This document shows, piece by piece, positions 3,138 to 12,508 of a DNA stretch of 64,000 nucleotides; position 1 is the stretch's first letter; each line of letters starts with the position of its first letter. The notes under the pieces are model-generated. The model had not been told where the DNA came from and did no database searches. It was given only the letters and a program-made list of their open reading frames with translations. Source of the DNA: Escherichia coli (GTDB taxonomy: Bacteria > Pseudomonadota > Gammaproteobacteria > Enterobacterales > Enterobacteriaceae); the NCBI RefSeq assembly GCF_044647545.1, contig NZ_CP172818.1; one strand, written 5' to 3'. Position numbers and translations under genes: made by a program.

Positions 3138-4034
3138 TTACATTTTTACTTTGGCAGTCATCCCGGCACTGACACGGACCTGTTCCAGAATGGCGGACCA
3201 GTCCTGGCGACCGCGACCCGCTGCGCGCGCCTGGCTATAAACCTCCCGTGAGGCGGCCCCCAGCGGCATTGGCACATGCAGCTGGTTGGCGACATCAAGG
3301 GCGATACCAAGATCCTTATGGGCAAGATCGATCATGAAGGCGGGAGAAAGATCCCCGCTGAGGACTTTGTTTGGCCAGGAAGTGGTGAAGTGGCCTTTAC
3401 CGGCGGCGGTACCGCTCATCACCTTGACGGCAACATCGAAGGGAAGATTCAGGGCTTCGCACAAAACGGCGGCTTCTGCCGAAAGCGCATTGAGCGCGAT
3501 GCTCATGTAGTTGTTGATGAGCTTAACGCGGATCCCCATGCCCGGACCGCCCGCGTTGATCAACTCACTGCCCATCGCCATCAGGATCGGTGTGGCGCGT
3601 TCAACTTGTTCAGCGGTGCCGCCAGCCAGCAGTAACAGAGTACCGGTAATGGCATTTGCAGAAGTACGGCCTACCGGAACATCCATCATGCTGAAGCCTC
3701 TGGCCTGCATATCAGCAATCAATTTATCGGTTTGCAGTGGGTGGATGGTCGACATATCAATGACCAGCGCATCGGAAGATAAGCTCTCACAGACACCGTT
3801 TTCACCGAACAACACGTGACGCACCAGATCGCCATTCGGCAACATGGTAATGATAAATTCGGCACCTTTAGCGGCCTGCGCCGGGTTGGCGGCGGGAGTC
3901 GCACCTTTGTCTACCAGATGCCGCACAGCTTCGGCGTTCACATCAAAGACGCGAAGTTGATGCCCTTGCTGCAATAAATTGCTCGCCATTGGCGAACCCA
4001 TTTGCCCTAAACCGATAAACGCGATTGCTGCCAT
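3138..4034 (-). CDS. yihU: 3-sulfolactaldehyde reductase (NAD-binding, GxGxxG at N-terminus)
   Basis: 298 aa ORF starting [13 protein letters not shown] (Rossmann motif); synteny. Confidence 0.9.
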
Positions 4035-4201
4035 AACCCTCTCCTGAATACAGTAATGTCACTTTTTGTCATTTATGACATGCCTTGCTTGTCTGTTTTT
4101 GATCGTATTTGTAATTTATCGTCAAAAAATTGACAGCCGTCACTTTTTAAACAATTGGTGAAATTAAAATGAACGCATCCCAAAATGCTTAAGGAATGAC
4201 C

Positions 4202-5098
4202 ATGATTCGTGTTGCTTGTGTAGGAATTACCGTGATGGATCGCATCTATTACGTGGAAGGATTGCCGACGGAGAGCGGTAAATACGTGGCGAAAAATTAT
4301 ACGGAAGTTGGCGGCGGGCCAGCGGCTACAGCAGCAGTTGCGGCGGCCAGACTAGGTGCGCAGGTCGATTTTATTGGTCGCGTCGGTGACGACGACACAG
4401 GCAACAGCCTGCTGGCAGAGCTGGAATCCTGGGGCGTTAACACCCGTTATACCAAACGGTATAACGAGGCGAAATCTTCGCAATCCGCCATCATGGTGGA
4501 TACCAAAGGCGAGCGGATAATCATTAACTACCCCAGCCCGGACTTGCTGCCTGACGCAGAGTGGTTGGAGGAAATTGATTTCTCTCAGTGGGATGTTGTG
4601 CTGGCGGATGTACGCTGGCACGAAGGTGCTAAAAAAGCCTTCACCCTGGCCCGGCAGGCGGGCGTGATGACTGTTTTGGACGGGGACATTACGCCGCAGG
4701 ATATCAGTGAGCTGGTGGCATTAAGCGATCATGCGGCCTTTTCAGAACCGGGTCTGGCGCGCTTAACGGGGGTGAAAGAGATGGCCAGTGCGCTAAAACA
4801 GGCACAAACGCTCACAAATGGTCATGTCTATGTGACCCAGGGCAGTGCAGGCTGTGACTGGCTGGAGAATGGCGGGCGACAGCATCAACCGGCCTTCAAA
4901 GTTGATGTGGTAGATACCACAGGAGCGGGTGATGTTTTTCACGGCGCATTGGCGGTGGCGCTGGCAACAGGTGGGGATTTAGCGGAGTCAGTCCGCTTCG
5001 CCAGCGGAGTAGCGGCGTTGAAATGCACGCGTCCCGGTGGACGAGCCGGGATCCCTGACTGTGATCAAACCCGATCTTTTTTGTCACTTTTTGTATAA
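4202..5098 (+). CDS. yihV: 6-deoxy-6-sulfofructose kinase (PfkB/ribokinase family)
   Basis: ORF track 4196-5098; trimmed to ATG at 4202 with AAGGA RBS at 4191-4195; C-terminal GAGD motif. Confidence 0.85.
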   Translation: MIRVACVGITVMDRIYYVEGLPTESGKYVAKNYTEVGGGPAATAAVAAARLGAQVDFIGRVGDDDTGNSLLAELESWGVNTRYTKRYNEAKSSQSAIMVDTKGERIIINYPSPDLLPDAEWLEEIDFSQWDVVLADVRWHEGAKKAFTLARQAGVMTVLDGDITPQDISELVALSDHAAFSEPGLARLTGVKEMASALKQAQTLTNGHVYVTQGSAGCDWLENGGRQHQPAFKVDVVDTTGAGDVFHGALAVALATGGDLAESVRFASGVAALKCTRPGGRAGIPDCDQTRSFLSLFV

Positions 5099-5131: not shown

Positions 5132-5917
5132 ATGAGCCTTACCGAACTAACCGGTAACCCGCGGCACGACCAACTCCTCATGCTGATCGCCGAGCGTGGG
5201 TATATGAATATTGATGAGCTGGCAAATCTGCTGGATGTCTCCACGCAGACGGTCCGCCGGGATATTCGTAAATTAAGCGAGCAAGGACTGATTACGCGCC
5301 ATCACGGTGGCGCGGGTCGGGCCTCCAGCGTCGTTAATACGGCGTTTGAGCAGCGTGAGGTTTCGCAAACTGAAGAGAAAAAAGCGATTGCCGAAGCGGT
5401 GGCAGACTATATTCCTGATGGATCGACAATATTTATCACCATCGGTACGACTGTTGAACATGTTGCCCGGGCGTTACTTAACCACAATCATTTGCGGATA
5501 ATCACCAACAGCCTGCGTGTGGCGCATATTCTTTACCACAACCCGCGCTTTGAAGTGATGGTGCCTGGCGGAACGCTGCGTTCCCATAACAGTGGGATCA
5601 TTGGCCCTTCAGCGGCGTCCTTTGTGGCCGATTTTCGCGCCGATTATCTGGTAACAAGTGTAGGCGCAATTGAGAGCGATGGCGCGTTGATGGAGTTTGA
5701 TGTAAACGAAGCTAACGTGGTGAAAACGATGATGGCGCACGCGAGAAATATTCTGCTGGTCGCCGATCACACTAAGTATCATGCTTCGGCGGCGGTTGAA
5801 ATTGGTAACGTGGCACAGGTTACCGCGCTCTTTACCGACGAGCTGCCGCCCGCTGCGCTAAAATCACGCTTACAAGACAGCCAAATTGAAATCATCCTTC
5901 CCCAGGAAGACACGTAG
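5132..5917 (+). CDS. csqR: DeoR-family transcriptional regulator of the sulfoquinovose operons
   Basis: ORF track 5108-5917; trimmed to ATG 5132 (GAGGA RBS at 5121-5125) giving 261 aa; N-terminal HTH, DeoR C-terminal domain. Confidence 0.85.
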   Translation: MSLTELTGNPRHDQLLMLIAERGYMNIDELANLLDVSTQTVRRDIRKLSEQGLITRHHGGAGRASSVVNTAFEQREVSQTEEKKAIAEAVADYIPDGSTIFITIGTTVEHVARALLNHNHLRIITNSLRVAHILYHNPRFEVMVPGGTLRSHNSGIIGPSAASFVADFRADYLVTSVGAIESDGALMEFDVNEANVVKTMMAHARNILLVADHTKYHASAAVEIGNVAQVTALFTDELPPAALKSRLQDSQIEIILPQEDT

Positions 5918-6015
5918 AATTTTGTGACCGTTGACCTGCCTTCATACCTGGCCACATAGCCAAACCCATCCTTTCCCGCTACAGTTAATTTCTTGTGGCG
6001 CGAAAGGAGGCAAAA

Positions 6016-6615
6016 ATGCTCTATATCTTTGATTTAGGTAATGTGATTGTCGATATCGACTTTAACCGTGTGCTGGGGGCCTGGAGCGATTTAACGCGTG
6101 TTCCACTGGCTACGCTTAAGAAGAGTTTCCACATGGGCGAGGCGTTTCATCAGCATGAGCGTGGGGAAATTAGCGACGAAGCGTTCGCAGAGGCGCTGTG
6201 TCATGAGATGGCCCTGCCGCTAAGCTATGAGCAGTTCTCCCACGGTTGGCAGGCGGTATTTGTTGCGCTACGACCGGAAGTGATCGCCATCATGCATAAA
6301 CTGCGTGAGCAGGGGCATCGCGTGGTGGTGCTTTCCAATACTAACCGCCTGCATACTACCTTCTGGCCGGAGGAATACCCGGAAATCCGTGATGCTGCTG
6401 ACCATATCTATCTGTCGCAAGACTTGGGTATGCGCAAACCTGAAGCACGAATTTATCAGCATGTTTTGCAGGCAGAAGGTTTTTCACCAGACGATACGGT
6501 CTTTTTCGACGATAACGCCGATAATATAGAAGGAGCTAATCAGCTAGGCATTACTAGTATTCTGGTGAAAGATAAAACCACCATCCCGGACTATTTCGCG
6601 AAGGTGTTATGCTAA
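6016..6615 (+). CDS. yihX: HAD-superfamily alpha-D-glucose-1-phosphate phosphatase
   Basis: ORF track 5995-6615; trimmed to ATG 6016 (AAGGAGG RBS 6004-6010) giving 199 aa; N-terminal DxG HAD motif. Confidence 0.85.
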
Positions 6616-7915: not shown

Positions 7916-8901
7916 GCCAGCTTCCAGGGTTGTCACGGGAAACAAGAGAGAGTATCGCTATGTATCACCTTCGGGTTCCACAAACAGAAGAAGAATTAGA
8001 GCGTTACTATCAGTTTCGCTGGGAAATGTTGCGTAAGCCCCTGCATCAACCGAAAGGTTCGGAACGCGACGCGTGGGATGCGATGGCGCATCACCAGATG
8101 GTCGTCGACGAGCAGGGTAATCTGGTGGCGGTAGGCCGACTGTATATTAATGCCGACAATGAAGCGTCCATTCGCTTTATGGCCGTTCATCCCGACGTGC
8201 AGGACAAAGGGTTAGGAACGCTGATGGCGATGACCCTCGAATCTGTGGCGCGTCAGGAAGGTGTTAAGCGCGTGACCTGTAGCGCCCGCGAAGACGCGGT
8301 GGAGTTTTTCGCCAAGCTGGGGTTTGTTAATCAGGGAGAAATCACCACGCCAACCACCACGCCGATTCGCCATTTTTTGATGATTAAACCCGTTGCCACT
8401 CTGGATGATATTTTGCATCGCGGCGACTGGTGCGCGCAGCTGCAACAGGCGTGGTATGAACACATCCCGCTGAGTGAAAAAATGGGCGTGCGCATTCAGC
8501 AATATACCGGGCAAAAATTTATCACCACCATGCCGGAAACAGGCAATCAGAATCCGCATCACACGCTGTTTGCCGGGAGTTTATTCTCGCTGGCAACGCT
8601 CACCGGTTGGGGGCTTATCTGGCTGATGCTGCGCGAACGCCACCTCGGCGGAACGATTATTCTGGCGGATGCGCATATCCGCTATAGCAAGCCGATTAGC
8701 GGCAAACCTCATGCGGTAGCCGACCTTGGTGCCTTAAGCGGCGATCTCGACCGTCTGGCGCGTGGACGAAAAGCACGGGTGCAGATGCAAGTAGAAATCT
8801 TTGGCGACGAGACGCCGGGTGCAGTGTTTGAAGGCACGTATATCGTTCTGCCCGCGAAGCCATTTGGCCCGTATGAAGAGGGCGGGAACGAAGAAGAGTA
8901 G
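7912..8901 (+). CDS. yiiD: GNAT acetyltransferase / thioesterase fusion protein
   Basis: 329 aa ORF; overlaps dtd stop; length matches YiiD. Confidence 0.85.
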
Positions 8902-9750
8902 CGTTGGCAGGTGCATTGCACTCCTTGCCCCTGTCATGCGGTGATACAACGCTTCACCTTCATCGCAAAGTGGGTCGTATTCAGCGGTAATGATATGTAC
9001 AGGTGGCAAGCCATTGAAATCATCGCGCCAAAGAGGGCTGGCTTCAGGATGCCTGCGTTCAATGCCTGGCAGGTACATCTCAAAGCCGCTCAGTAAAGTG
9101 TCGCGTGTGATGATGTAATCGTGACGATTGCGTATGTAGCTTTCGAAATGCGCAGTCGCATCAAGCATGGGATAAATTAAGATGACCGAGTTGTGCCGGT
9201 TGCCACTCGCCAGCACGCTTTAATCGCAAAGCAGTTACCAGCGCCAGATGTCCGCCCGCACTGTCACCGGCAAGAGTTATCCGTTGTTTATCAACGCCGA
9301 GTCGTTCGGCGTGTTGCCGACTGAATTCTGCACCTCGTTGCGCATCATCATGGGCGGCGGGGAAAGTATGTCCGGTGCCAGCCGATACTGGACGGCAATA
9401 ACCCGACATTGCCCGTAATAGGCTAACTGGCGCAGCTGGTTGTCGTGAGTTGCGAACCCGCCGCTAACAAAACAGCCACCGTAGTAATAAATTATCGTCG
9501 GGAGTAATGTCGGGGCATTCAGCGGTGACACTATTCGTAAGGTCATCGCTTCAAGTTCGATAGTCTGAATATCTACCCGCGTTTCTGTCTCACCCGCAAG
9601 GACAGCGCTGGCGATATAGCCCTCCCTGCGCTGCGCAATACTTTGTTGACGCGATGAGGGGCGACCCGCAGCGATAAACTCTTCGACTAACTCTGCAATT
9701 CCTTTTTCAGTGCCATAGTAGAACTCATTTTGCTGTATGAATGTACAGTT
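8734..9750 (-). pseudogene. Alpha/beta-hydrolase (Aes/HSL-family esterase-lipase) remnant, frameshifted at ~9372 and ~9188, no start codon in the N-terminal frame, 3' end overlapping yiiD
   Basis: HGGG-region (IIYYYGGCFVSGG) in ORF 9277-9546, GDSAGG nucleophile motif in ORF 9161-9409, DPLCDEGE acid motif in ORF 8734-9216, each in a different frame on the minus strand. Confidence 0.6.
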
Positions 9751-9945
9751 TTATACACCCGTTTTTACTGGATGGATACAGGGAAATTCACGGGCGTGAA
9801 AAATCTGGAAAGCGCCTCGCAAATGTAAAGACAAACCCGGCAGAGATGTGGTTTTGCTGGAGCACTATCAGTAAGCTAGTGGTTTCAAGGGTACGTCAAT
9901 GACGTACAGAAGGGGTTTATTTATCTAAGCCAATGGCGTATAATT

Positions 9946-10256
9946 ATGCTCTTCATCGAAACGGAAATTTTTACTGAAGATGTTCAAAAACTGCTGACCG
10001 ACGATGAATTCAGTCGTTTTCAGTTTTTCCTGGCCTTGAATCCTGACTATGGTGAGGTAATACCTGAAACTGGTGGGTTAAGAAAGGTTCGATGGGTGTC
10101 AGGAGGAAGGGGAAACGTGCTGGTGTCAGGGTTATTTACTTTCATCAGGTTAAACATTATGAGATCAGATTACTGCTTATTTATCGTAAGGGTATTAAAG
10201 ATAATATCTCTCCCCAGGAAAAAGCAATGCTCCGGTTGTTAAATACGAGGTGGTAA
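9946..10256 (+). pseudogene. HigB/RelE-like type II toxin, inactivated by a 1-nt deletion in an A-run at ~10113-10116
   Basis: ORF 9946-10242 turns to nonsense after GGRG; shifting +1 at the A-run restores KRAGVRVIYFHQVKHYEIRLLLIYRKGIKDNISPQEKAMLRLLNTRW ending at TAA 10254-10256, 0 nt before the antitoxin ATG. Confidence 0.6.
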
Positions 10257-10547
10257 ATGGATAAGGCACTTTTTGAGCGGTTGACTCACAGCATGGCCCA
10301 GATGAATGAAATTATTGAAGGAACGCGACAGCCTTCGCGGACTTTTGAAGTTGATGCTATGAAAATCAAAGAAATACGCCGCGCTTCAGGGTTGTCACAA
10401 TCTAAATTTGCCGATCTTATTTCTGTAAGCGTAGACACGTTGCGTAACTGGGAGCAGGGGCGACGTTCGCCGACCGGGCCTGCAAAGGCTTTGCTGCGAG
10501 CGATTGCCAATGATCCGCAACATGTGCTGCAAGCACTTAACCGTTAG
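10257..10547 (+). CDS. XRE-family HTH antitoxin-like DNA-binding protein (HigA-like partner)
   Basis: 96 aa ORF; HTH region IRRASGLSQSKFADLISVSVDTLRNWEQGRRSP; immediately downstream of the toxin remnant. Confidence 0.65.
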   Translation: MDKALFERLTHSMAQMNEIIEGTRQPSRTFEVDAMKIKEIRRASGLSQSKFADLISVSVDTLRNWEQGRRSPTGPAKALLRAIANDPQHVLQALNR

Positions 10548-11150
10548 AGGCATGGTTATGCCATACAGAAAGCACCAGCATTCAGAACTCCTGTGAAAGC
10601 GGCGTAGTGCCACCTGCTCAGGAGTTTTGCTATGACCCGTAATCAGTGCTGACCGTTGCCACCCTATGATGCGATTAAAAAAACTCATCGTCGCGCCGAT
10701 GATTGACGTCAATGCTATCGGATGATACCGGGGGTGTTCCAGAAAGATCCAACTTTCCCGAACTGTTACCAACAAAATTATAACGATGAGCAAGTTAAGA
10801 CCGGTTGGTAGCAGTACTGACCGGTCTGTGATGGATGATTAATTTCACCTTAAATCCGGGTGCTGTTAGGATGCTGACATTTTTCGGCTACACCATTCAG
10901 ATTATGCAAATAAAGATCCAATCAAAAAATAAACATCCCTGTATATAATATATTTATAGCACCCATATCTCATCCTGGGCGATAACCCAACCATTTTTGA
11001 TTAACAAATGAAACAACTGCAACGTTCTTATTATTTCTGGAAAACGTCTCGCAAAAACAAAACAGCATGCAAAAATCCGCTTTTTTTAAATGATTTTTCG
11101 GCGTAATTTTCGCACATACATTAATGAGTAATATATGTAAGGTATTGGTA

Positions 11151-11369
11151 ATGGCGATGAATACGGTTTTTCTTCATTTATCAGAAGAGGCAATTAAACG
11201 GCTGAACAAGCTTAGGGGCTGGCGTAAGGTTTCACGATCTGCAATTTTACGCGAAGCGGTTGAGCAATATCTGGAGCGGCAGCAATTTCCGGTGCGTAAA
11301 GCAAAGGGTGGCAGGCAAAGGGGGGAGACAGTAGTTGTTGATGATCAGTGTAAGGAGCATAAGGAATGA
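11151..11369 (+). CDS. Small ribbon-helix-helix (CopG-like) protein, 72 aa, yiiE/yiiF family
   Basis: ORF track 11124-11369; trimmed to ATG 11151 to give 72 aa; N-terminal VFLHLSEEAIKRLNKL resembles RHH beta-strand/helix. Confidence 0.55.
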   Translation: MAMNTVFLHLSEEAIKRLNKLRGWRKVSRSAILREAVEQYLERQQFPVRKAKGGRQRGETVVVDDQCKEHKE

Positions 11370-11578
11370 CAAAAAATTTATTATTCTTGAATATAAAAAC
11401 CAGATGCCCTTATTCTGGTATTAATACAAGGCTGTTTTACTTGAACTTATAATAACTGCAACTGTTACATCATATCTGGAAAACGCCTCGCGAAATACGA
11501 GAGTTTGGAATAGCAGGTGTCGTCATACCCTATGAACTGTAATCCGGGCGACCAGCGCCACCCGGAAAACGTCAGAGA

Positions 11579-12508
11579 TTACTCCCCTTCACCCGGAAAC
11601 AGGAACGGGTTGATGGAACTACGGGCATAGCCTTCTTGCTCCATTCGCGCGTCCAGTACCAGAGAGGCGAGGTCATCTGCCACGGCTTCAACTTTCGGTT
11701 CTTTTTCCTGATAAAGAATCTTCAGGTAAGTGCCGCAGTCATCGCAGCTTTCGGCTTTAATCGCGGCCTGTTCGTCATCCAGCGACCAGTAATGCAGTTT
11801 GCCGCTTTGTTCACAGTTGCTGCATTTTACGCGTACTACGTGCCATTCAGTTTCACACAGGTTGCAGTGCAGGTAACGCAGCCCCTGAGTGGTGCCAATT
11901 TGCACCATGCTGGACACCGGCATAGAACCACAAACCGGGCAATATTGACGTTGTTCGCCATATTCCGCACGCGCTTTGCCGGGGATCAGATTGGCCATCT
12001 GCGCCCAGTAGAGCGACAGTGCAGCCCAGATAAACGGCGCTTTATCGCTGCTGACGGACGAGAAATCAGAGGCAAACAGTGCGCTGGCCATATCTTCCAG
12101 CTCCTGAGTCGATGCCTTCTCCAGATTCTCAATCACTGCCAGCGCCGGGCCGCTCATTTCAGGTTTCAGCTCAGCAATCAGCGCCATCAGCAGCTTTTGC
12201 CAGTGCTTATCACGCGGCAGAACGTGAATATCCAGCGGGGGCTTGCCTTGTGCGCTGGCTTCTTTAATGCGCGTGGTCAGATCCATCTCCAGCGGATGGT
12301 CGTACAGCACCACTTCCTGGGCGTGGGCGATAAGCGCAGCAAAGCGCAGGTAATCACCCAGCGGATTATTTTCTGCCAGCTCGCGCAGACGCTCGGCGCG
12401 GCGGTTGTATAAATTCTTGAGCCGAGGGAACAATAACGGCGGAATCATATCCGCCGTACGTTTCTCGCTCGAACCCAGCTCATCTTGCGGGATTATGCGA
12501 ATACTCAT
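11579..12508 (-). CDS. fdhE: Formate dehydrogenase accessory protein FdhE
   Basis: 309 aa ORF with paired CxxC motifs; synteny downstream of fdoI. Confidence 0.9.

What the first reader, a model, noticed from the sequence alone, without database searches (positions are those of the whole stretch)
10548..11150. ORF-free 600 bp AT-rich gap with a hairpin downstream of the antitoxin
No credible ORF spans this stretch (the 132-aa minus-strand ORF 10395-10793 overlaps the antitoxin and looks spurious). An inverted repeat AACTCCTG...CAGGAGTT at ~10587-10632 could terminate the TA transcript. The region could host an sRNA or is the scar of a deleted gene.
Basis: inference. Interest (0 to 1): 0.3.

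Follow-up and report, generated by a model that had tools for sequence, protein, structure and literature searches.

The report
Gene-deletion scar upstream of yiiE
This 600-bp "empty" stretch holds the broken ends of two small genes lost in a roughly 390-bp deletion, followed by the AT-rich control region of the next gene (yiiE); it is an ordinary decayed piece of a fast-changing E. coli islet, not a hidden RNA gene.

Summary
The gap (10548-11150, 603 bp) and its hairpin are real, but only the right half is AT-rich. The window is an Escherichia coli-type fabY(yiiD)-fdhE variable islet.

About 23% of complete E. coli genomes (1271 of 5426) carry an extra ~390 bp exactly at window 10683/10684. 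That DNA completes two small orphan genes: ORF-A (73 aa, one membrane helix) and ORF-B (92 aa).

The window keeps three remnants:
- the ORF-A leader hairpin and the first 17 codons, with a private +A frameshift;
- a decayed ORF-B 3' end with an in-frame TGA;
- a strong 13-bp hairpin at 10798-10827.

From 10828 to 11150 lies the AT-rich yiiE upstream region. In K-12 this region is reported as H-NS-associated, SlyA-responsive and bound by sigma-S polymerase.

It looks like an intercistronic, ribosome-site-occluding structure, not a canonical terminator.

Rfam gives no match. The fused remnant ORF is broken in different ways in different lineages, which indicates neutral decay.

Verdict: "scar of a deleted gene" is supported; "terminator" and "sRNA" are not. 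Low interest.

Side observation: a 20-nt box precedes the toxin-antitoxin (TA) operon, yiiE and the deleted yiiF, and it marks a deletion junction in E. whittamii.

The parts
10549..10562 (+). Small 5-bp hairpin (GGCAT-GGTT-ATGCC) directly after the nadS stop codon.
   Evidence: RNA fold of 10545-10640.
10583..10629 (+). It has an 11-bp outer stem (CAGAACUCCUG/CAGGAGUUUUG) and a weakened inner stem. The 3' arm contains AGGAG (10620-10624), 7 nt before the ATG at 10632.
   Evidence: The outer stem is the same in all alleles except two: one substitution in ETEC and a G-to-A change at the stem top in B2-type alleles. The inner stem is perfect (6 bp) in B2-type alleles.
10632..10683 (+). 5' remnant of ORF-A (73-aa membrane protein in relatives, WP_001550354.1). 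It keeps the ATG plus 17 codons. An extra A at 10645, absent from every relative aligned here, causes a frameshift and a TGA at 10650-10652. The remnant ends in an A7 run (10677-10683).
   Evidence: tblastn places ORF-A residues 1-5 in frame +1 and residues 6-17 in frame +2.
10684..10688 (.). Deletion junction. About 390 bp present in 1271 of 5426 E. coli genomes are missing here.
10689..10790 (+). Decayed 3' remnant of ORF-B (92 aa in relatives, WP_001315112.1 and WP_001296612.1). It aligns to residues 59-90 and carries an in-frame TGA at 10704-10706.
   Evidence: tblastn E=1e-7, 51% identity; DNA alignments.
10798..10827 (+). Hairpin 2: a 13-bp stem with a GCAG loop and no U-tail. It is present in every allele that retains this segment, including K-12. 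In a minimal-locus relative it sits 19 nt after the fabY stop codon.
   Evidence: 96% of cells are paired, but covariation is not significant.
10828..11150 (+). AT-rich yiiE upstream (promoter and regulatory) region, shared with K-12 from 10750 onward. The last ~95 nt are nearly invariant even in alleles that are otherwise ~75-80% identical.
   Evidence: K-12 literature.
11012..11056 (+). A 45-nt repeat containing the 20-nt box TCTGGAAAACGTCTCGCAAA (11036-11055). Further copies lie at 9804-9823 (upstream of the TA operon) and 11475-11494 (upstream of the deleted yiiF).
   Evidence: (3 matches against 0.02 expected).

Best explanation
The gap is a composite of dead and regulatory DNA inside the variable fabY(yiiD)-fdhE islet of Escherichia.

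Left part (10548-10827). This is the remains of a two-gene module, ORF-A and ORF-B, that in other strains follows the RelE-like/NadS toxin-antitoxin pair. I infer, but have not shown, that the module is co-transcribed with that pair. A ~390-bp deletion joined codon 17 of ORF-A to the last ~35 codons of ORF-B, and both remnants then decayed by frameshifts and stop codons. The module's leader hairpin survives; I infer it masks the ORF-A ribosome-binding site. The strong terminal hairpin after ORF-B also survives. In this window both hairpins are now just structured 3'-untranslated RNA behind nadS. At most they may stabilise or partly end that transcript.

Right part (10828-11150). This is the AT-rich upstream control region of yiiE. 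It includes a 20-nt box that also precedes the TA operon and yiiF.

Shown here: the homology, the deletion and the decay. Inferred: co-transcription, ribosome-site masking, and the roles of the hairpins.
For: - Same locus as E. coli. The gap matches 5408 of 5426 complete genomes; the best uninterrupted matches carry no annotation there.
- 1271 genomes carry the extra 391 bp, annotated as one or two hypothetical proteins.
- Alignments put the missing DNA at 10683/10684.
- tblastn recovers both remnants, including a frame change and an in-frame stop.
- The fused remnant ORF is disrupted differently in each lineage: +A in the window, -A in O157, -1 in the A run in ETEC, and open for 30 aa in ST648 and LD22. 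This indicates no selection.
- An Escherichia cryptic-clade genome keeps both ORFs intact, with an in-frame +AAA in ORF-A. The intact state is therefore old.
- AGGAG lies in the hairpin's 3' arm, 7 nt before the ATG.
- No promoter-like site lies between nadS and ORF-A in an intact allele.
- Rfam gives nothing.
- In K-12, which shares 10750-11150, yiiE is H-NS-associated and rises 2.5-fold when SlyA is overexpressed (PMC5797941). The yiiD-yiiE spacer is a sigma-S holoenzyme SELEX site (PMC5493296).
- The TA pair and the variability of this locus are described as relE-1/yiaG-1, TA27 (PMC7232551).
Against: - ORF-A and ORF-B are Escherichia-only orphans with no Pfam, NCBIfam, PHROG or PADLOC match. 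ORF-B shows only weak constraint, 5 synonymous against 6 non-synonymous changes versus the cryptic clade. That they are functional genes is therefore not proven.
- The ORF-B remnant is only ~78% identical to the intact allele, while the DNA to its left is ~94% identical. The junction may be a recombination between old, diverged alleles and not a simple deletion.
- No expression data exist for this allele. A residual RNA-level role for either hairpin cannot be excluded.
Confidence: 0.8

Rival explanations
1. Hairpin 1 is the intrinsic (Rho-independent) terminator of the toxin-antitoxin transcript.
For: It lies 36 nt downstream of the nadS stop codon. Its core is GC-rich (CUCCUG/CAGGAG) and is followed by UUUU. 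It is stable (-23 kcal/mol, z=-3.1) and its outer stem is almost the same across alleles.
Against: The 8-bp arms are 25 nt apart, with internal loops. Only four U's follow, they pair with an upstream A-rich stretch, and GCUAUG comes next. The pattern scan reports no + strand terminator. In intact alleles the hairpin overlaps the ribosome-binding site of ORF-A, which has no promoter-like site of its own. Efficient termination there would silence ORF-A and ORF-B.
Confidence: 0.15
2. The gap encodes a small regulatory RNA, either free-standing or derived from the 3' UTR of nadS.
For: There are two stable hairpins. The 10795-10900 segment is fairly well conserved between diverged alleles.
Against: Rfam gives no match at E<=1. 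There is no + strand promoter-like site, and promoter-like hits are below shuffle expectation (2 against 4.0). Neither hairpin has a U-tail. Lineage-specific indels occur through 10640-10750. K-12 lacks everything left of 10750, E. whittamii lacks everything up to 11035, and IS1 interrupts the region in the closest relative.
Confidence: 0.05
3. A small protein is still made here. Candidates are the ORF-A/ORF-B fusion peptide (30 aa in ST648 and LD22) or the 37-aa ORF at 10835-10948.
For: AGGAG sits 7 nt before the ATG at 10632. For the 37-aa ORF, by my own count on the alignment, 8 of 12 substitutions between the window-type and B2-type alleles in the first 21 codons fall at codon position 3.
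Against: In the window the fusion ORF stops after 6 codons, and other lineages carry different frameshifts. The 37-aa ORF has no ribosome-binding site. It has AAG in place of ATG in K-12, O157 and ETEC, a 19-bp deletion in K-12 and a 1-nt deletion in strain 1296KP. Its only relatives among 1.8 billion proteins are three short peptides; one was traced to this locus and the other two look like junction variants of it. It has no Pfam match.
Confidence: 0.04

Closest known systems
relE-1/yiaG-1 (TA27) islet between yiiD and fdhE of AIEC and CFT073-type E. coli (PMC7232551)
   Same: It occupies the same chromosomal position and carries the same toxin-antitoxin pair (RelE-like 103-aa protein plus NadS/XRE antitoxin). 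The paper describes the locus as variable and notes that K-12 and HS lack the TA genes and their neighbours.
   Different: The passage I read does not describe the two small downstream ORFs, their deletion, or the hairpins. The window's copy is further decayed: a toxin frameshift, fragmented hydrolase ORFs, and no yiiF.
Unannotated pseudogene remnants (deletion scars) in enterobacterial variable regions
   Same: There is recognisable homology to both ends of intact genes in relatives. The interior is missing, frames are broken, and the lesions differ between lineages.
   Different: The genes lost are Escherichia-restricted orphans of unknown function, so nothing can be said about which function was lost.
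Ribosome-binding-site-occluding leader hairpins of small membrane-protein genes (for example the 5' UTR folds of type I toxin mRNAs such as hok and tisB; comparison from general knowledge)
   Same: The Shine-Dalgarno sequence is paired in a stable stem immediately upstream of a small ORF with one hydrophobic helix.
   Different: No antisense RNA or processing site was identified. ORF-A is 73 aa, longer than typical type I toxins. It sits behind a type II TA pair and is followed by a second ORF. Toxicity is untested.
H-NS-silenced, SlyA-counter-silenced AT-rich promoters; yiiE in K-12 (PMC5797941)
   Same: The right half of the gap is ~90% identical to the K-12 yiiE upstream region and has 31-39% GC.
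   Different: Binding and regulation were measured in K-12 only. The window differs by a 19-bp indel and several substitutions.
Canonical intrinsic terminators
   Same: Hairpin 1 is a GC-containing stem downstream of a stop codon.
   Different: Its loop is far beyond 3-8 nt and no free U-tract follows. The scan does not detect it.

Membership tests
Intrinsic (Rho-independent) terminator | GC-rich stem of 5 or more bp | tested here: met
   The outer stem has 11 bp, including the CUCCUG/CAGGAG core.
Intrinsic (Rho-independent) terminator | Compact hairpin with a short loop (about 3-8 nt) | tested here: not met
   The 8-bp arms are 25 nt apart, and the interior is an internal loop plus a weak 3-bp stem in the window.
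Intrinsic (Rho-independent) terminator | U-rich tract (5 or more U in 8 nt) immediately 3' of the stem | tested here: not met
   The stem is followed by CUAUGACC. The UUUU belongs to the stem. No + strand terminator appears in the scan.
Known sRNA or cis-regulatory RNA family (Rfam 15) | Match to a covariance model | tested here: not met
   0 matches at E<=1 over 8500-12500 on both strands.
Gene remnant (pseudogene scar) | Sequence homology to an intact gene in relatives at the same locus | tested here: met
   The ORF-A 5' end and the ORF-B 3' end are both recovered. Intact copies exist in 1271 genomes.
Gene remnant (pseudogene scar) | Disrupted reading frame, with different lesions in different lineages | tested here: met
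   A ~390-bp deletion is shared. Private lesions: +A (window), -A (O157), -1 in the A run (ETEC), and an in-frame TGA.
Gene remnant (pseudogene scar) | The intact form is a functional, expressed gene | not testable with these tools
   The ORFs are orphans and stay open in a cryptic clade with an in-frame indel. No expression or phenotype data are available.
Type I toxin-like small membrane protein with an occluded ribosome-binding site (for the lost ORF-A) | Small hydrophobic protein with the Shine-Dalgarno sequence sequestered in the 5' leader | tested here: met
   ORF-A is 73 aa with one hydrophobic stretch (FAFVLPVFVLVGCVGIDAIIMV) and AGGAG in the stem.
Type I toxin-like small membrane protein with an occluded ribosome-binding site (for the lost ORF-A) | Cognate antisense RNA antitoxin, and toxicity on overexpression | not tested
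   The scan of L005 lists no minus-strand promoter-like hit within ORF-A or its leader. Toxicity requires an experiment.
Sigma-54 promoter (for the 20-nt box) | GG-N10-GC spacing with a TGGCAC/TTGCW-like sequence, and sigma-54 binding in vivo or in vitro | tested here: not met
   The spacing fits, but the -24 element is TGGAAA. K-12 has two perfect boxes, yet yiiE and yiiF do not appear in the main text and tables of the sigma-54 ChIP-seq paper (PMC4591121) or the gSELEX paper (PMC8743547). Supplements were not searched.

The most novel reading that the evidence does not exclude
The fabY-fdhE interval may be an array of small antitoxin-type modules: RelE-like/NadS with ORF-A and ORF-B, then yiiE, then yiiF-vapC. 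Each is preceded by a homologous ~150-nt upstream region containing the 20-nt box TCTGGAAAACGYCTCGCRAA. The box could be a shared operator or a preferred recombination site through which modules are gained and lost. The gap in this window would then be one decayed cassette end. Separately, ORF-A and ORF-B could be accessory genes of the TA system, with expression gated by the leader hairpin and by length changes in the A-tract.
Probability: 0.1. Interest if true: 0.4.

Novelty: new member of a known kind. Interest (0 to 1): 0.12.

Why it matters
The main value is for annotation. The stretch should be labelled as remnants of two small genes plus the yiiE regulatory region, not as a candidate sRNA locus or terminator. 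It also documents stepwise decay of one E. coli islet: toxin frameshift, hydrolase fragmentation, loss of ORF-A, ORF-B and yiiF. Two leads could be followed up cheaply. One is the pair of Escherichia-only orphan genes behind a TA pair, present in about a quarter of strains, including an ST131 genome. The other is the conserved 20-nt box shared by three module promoters.

Tried and rejected
- Rfam scan at permissive E-value: nothing.
- Sigma-70 promoter and terminator pattern scan: only minus-strand hits, at or below shuffle expectation.
- Sigma-54 reading of the 20-nt box: rejected. Neither the K-12 ChIP-seq paper nor the gSELEX paper mentions yiiE or yiiF in its main text and tables.
- Pfam, NCBIfam, PHROGs and PADLOC for ORF-A and ORF-B: no family.
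- The apparently 'divergent' ORF-A homologues are frame-shifted versions. The two I traced lie at this same Escherichia locus, and the rest show the same frame mosaics.
- ORF-B homologues are all close relatives; the named ones are E. coli.
- 37-aa ORF 10835-10948. The full HMMER search found only three short peptides. It is not conserved as an ORF.
- Minus-strand 132-aa ORF: no Pfam match.
- Genome-collection scan with the invariant yiiE-proximal 21-mer: only two species representatives, so a broad comparative alignment was not possible.
- Covariation test on hairpin 2: 96% paired, but only one double-sided change, and 280 of 500 shuffles do as well.
- Structure prediction of the orphan ORFs was not attempted, because the alignments are too shallow to be informative.

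Full report
**Observation.** The window around the finding is an Escherichia coli-type locus. In order it holds:
- fabY/yiiD, ending at 8901;
- fragments of an alpha/beta-hydrolase gene on the minus strand;
- a RelE-like toxin gene;
- a NadS/XRE antitoxin (10257-10547; NadS model E=1e-16);
- the 603-bp gap;
- yiiE (11151-11369; RHH_1, E=1e-11);
- fdhE (11579-12508, minus strand).

The best uninterrupted RefSeq matches to the gap carry no annotated feature; the top match has an IS1 transposase inserted in it.

The inverted repeat lies at 10586-10593 and 10619-10626. It extends to an 11-bp outer stem within arms 10583-10603/10609-10629.

The gap is not uniformly AT-rich. GC is 0.475-0.505 over 10500-10799 and falls to 0.31-0.39 over 10800-11199.

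The hairpin is real but not remarkable. Perfect 8-bp inverted repeats with 3-30-nt loops occur 0.78 times per 603 bp in this window, and the hairpin's energy is in the top 4.2% of 63-nt windows. A stronger hairpin at 10798-10827 (13 bp, -24 kcal/mol, z=-4.5) went unnoticed.

The 132-aa minus-strand ORF has no family match, spans the deletion junction, and is only 65 aa in a relative. It is spurious.

**What the left half is.** The gap matches 5408 of 5426 complete E. coli genomes, and the matches fall into three groups:
- 2098 genomes cover at least 80% of the gap.
- K-12-like genomes share only 10750-11150.
- 1271 genomes, including an ST131 genome, carry an extra ~390 bp.

Alignments place that extra DNA between window 10683 and 10684-10688.

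In strain 1296KP the full interval encodes two genes:
- ORF-A, 73 aa (WP_001550354.1): MTRNRAERRHHMARLKKSAAVIALQAMEAKKHQVFAFVLPVFVLVGCVGIDAIIMVPAYRKFVQKHAMRIKGK. It has a basic N-terminus and one hydrophobic helix.
- ORF-B, 92 aa (WP_001315112.1).

The window retains several pieces of this module:
- the ORF-A ATG (10632) and 17 codons, ending in an A7 run;
- an extra A at 10645, absent from every relative aligned here, which shifts the frame onto a TGA at 10650-10652;
- directly abutting, the last ~35 codons of ORF-B with an in-frame TGA at 10704-10706.

tblastn aligns ORF-B residues 59-90 to 10689-10781 (E=1e-7). It splits ORF-A residues 1-5 and 6-17 between two frames.

The fused remnant is broken differently elsewhere. 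O157 has -A, an ETEC strain has -1 in the A run, and ST648 and LD22 have an open 30-codon fusion. This is the pattern expected from neutral decay after one shared deletion.

An Escherichia cryptic-clade genome (E4385) keeps both ORFs intact, with an in-frame +AAA in ORF-A. The intact state is therefore old.

Both ORFs are orphans:
- They have no Pfam, NCBIfam, PHROG or PADLOC match.
- Their only relatives are close ones; every named or traced relative is from Escherichia.
- The apparently divergent ORF-A relatives are frame-shift mosaics. The two I traced lie at this same locus.

**The hairpins.** Hairpin 1's 3' arm contains AGGAG (10620-10624), 7 nt before the ORF-A ATG. Its four U's pair with an upstream AGAA, and CUAUGACC follows. 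The arms are 25 nt apart.

The scan finds no + strand terminator in the gap. It finds no promoter-like site between nadS and ORF-A in an intact allele.

I therefore infer that ORF-A and ORF-B were read from the TA promoter. On that reading hairpin 1 is an intercistronic structure that masks the ORF-A ribosome-binding site, not an efficient terminator. A partial terminator or RNA-stabilising role cannot be excluded without 3'-end mapping.

Hairpin 2 follows the ORF-B stop codon in intact alleles and is present in all alleles that retain this segment, K-12 included. In a minimal-locus relative (L017) it lies 19 nt after the fabY stop codon.

So hairpin 2 and everything to its right look like the core fabY-yiiE spacer, with islets inserted to its left. 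Its apical pair runs A-U, then G-U, then G-C across alleles. The formal covariation test is not significant, since 280 of 500 shuffles do as well.

**The right half.** The region 10828-11150 is the yiiE upstream region, and the last ~95 nt are nearly invariant even in alleles that are otherwise ~75-80% identical.

K-12 shares this DNA, and three results are reported for it there:
- yiiE is listed as H-NS-associated in two data sets;
- yiiE rises 2.5-fold on SlyA overexpression (PMC5797941);
- the yiiD-yiiE spacer is a sigma-S holoenzyme SELEX peak (PMC5493296).

The region contains a 45-nt repeat with the 20-nt box TCTGGAAAACGTCTCGCAAA (11036-11055). The box occurs three times in 64 kb, against 0.02 expected. 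All three copies are on the + strand:
- 123 nt upstream of the toxin gene start;
- 96 nt upstream of the yiiE start;
- where yiiF's upstream region would be.

The whole ~150-nt upstream regions of the three units are alignable.

A sigma-54 reading fits the GG-N10-GC spacing. I rejected it because K-12, which has two perfect boxes, shows no yiiE or yiiF site in the main text and tables of the sigma-54 ChIP-seq or gSELEX papers.

**sRNA and small-protein rivals.**
- Rfam gives nothing. Promoter-like hits are minus-strand only and below shuffle expectation.
- The region tolerates large changes. K-12 replaces everything left of 10750. E. whittamii lacks everything up to 11035. In the closest relative, IS1 sits at 11070-11079.
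- The 37-aa ORF at 10835-10948 shows a suggestive excess of third-position substitutions between diverged alleles. However, it lacks a start codon in K-12, O157 and ETEC, is hit by indels in K-12 and 1296KP, and has only three short relatives, the one I traced lying at this same locus.

**Comparison with known systems.** The TA pair and the variability of this site are already published as relE-1/yiaG-1 (TA27) in AIEC and CFT073 (PMC7232551). The gap is an unannotated deletion scar plus a promoter region, which are both known kinds of feature. It fails two of the three defining features of an intrinsic terminator and matches no RNA family.

**Verdict.** 'Terminator' and 'sRNA' are not supported. 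Interest is low (0.12). The most novel reading not excluded is that the box-preceded modules form a recombining cassette array, or that ORF-A and ORF-B are accessory TA genes. I rate that at probability ~0.1.

Noticed in passing
window 9804-9823, 11036-11055, 11475-11494: The 20-nt box TCTGGAAA(A/G)CG(C/T)CTCGC(A/G)AA occurs three times in 64 kb (0.02 expected). All copies are on the + strand, upstream of the TA operon, yiiE and the deleted yiiF. The surrounding ~150 nt are paralogous. Function unknown; a sigma-54 reading was rejected.
   Followed up: partly
L016 (E. whittamii) 3173-3192, equivalent to window 9823/11036: E. whittamii joins window 9689-9823 directly to 11036-11698, with a single hybrid box at the junction. 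The TA cassette and most of the gap were therefore lost by recombination between box 1 and box 2.
   Followed up: partly
window 11495-11516: yiiF is missing. About 600 bp present in strain LD22 (L001 3599-4199, containing yiiF and a REP-like element) are deleted immediately after box 3. ST648-type strains share this loss.
   Followed up: partly
window ~10106 (toxin) and 8734-9546 (hydrolase, minus strand): The RelE-like toxin gene has a 1-nt deletion in an A run, which frameshifts it into 98-aa and 54-aa ORFs. The alpha/beta-hydrolase gene is split into three ORFs and lacks its 3' end (156 bp of L001 are missing). No complete RefSeq E. coli genome is more than 98.8% identical over 8700-11700, so the source strain is not in that set.
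   Followed up: partly
L018 (Escherichia sp. E4385) 5428-6045: In this cryptic-clade genome yiiF is followed by a split PIN-domain (VapC-like) gene (Pfam PIN, 4e-5 and 7e-9). This suggests yiiF is an orphaned VapB-type antitoxin, and that the yiiF-fdhE spacer of E. coli is a vapC remnant.
   Followed up: partly
window 10835-10948: A 37-aa ORF (MINFTLNPGAVRMLTFFGYTIQ...). Between alleles that are ~78% identical, 8 of 12 substitutions in the first 21 codons fall at codon position 3. The ORF lacks a start codon or is hit by indels in K-12, O157, ETEC and 1296KP. It may be the remnant of an older coding region.
   Followed up: partly
L002 2733-2955, L005 1733-1954, L018 4001-4225 (ORF-A A-tract; window 10677-10683): The A-run in ORF-A varies: A7 in 1296KP, A8 in SCU-124 and A10 in E4385. 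This switches between a 73/74-aa membrane-protein frame and a 70-aa Arg/Cys-rich frame that RefSeq annotates as WP_000197774.1. It may reflect phase variation or slippage, or simply decay.
   Followed up: no
L019 (strain 500111), equivalent to window 11070-11079: In the closest RefSeq relative an IS1 element is inserted between the 20-nt box and yiiE, 72-81 nt upstream of the yiiE start codon.
   Followed up: yes
L012 (O157:H7) 620-2434; L003 (K-12) 2031-2506: The islet carries alternative cargo in other strains. O157 and ETEC replace the hydrolase and TA genes with two ~300-aa hypothetical proteins, one annotated as a transposase in another record, joining at window 10522. K-12 has 470 bp of unrelated DNA with a truncated 39-aa pseudogene, joining at window 10750.
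   Followed up: partly
window 10685-10702, minus strand: There is a terminator-like site on the minus strand (stem TCATCG/CGATGA followed by T7). It exists only because the deletion placed the ORF-A A7 run next to an ORF-B-derived palindrome. Its fold is no better than shuffled sequence (z=0.01).
   Followed up: yes
L017 (GCA_012613685.1) 3997-4652: This is a minimal version of the locus. The fabY stop codon is followed 19 nt later by hairpin 2, then the AT-rich spacer, then a single RHH gene. That gene looks like a yiiE/yiiF fusion, because its C-terminus matches yiiF.
   Followed up: partly
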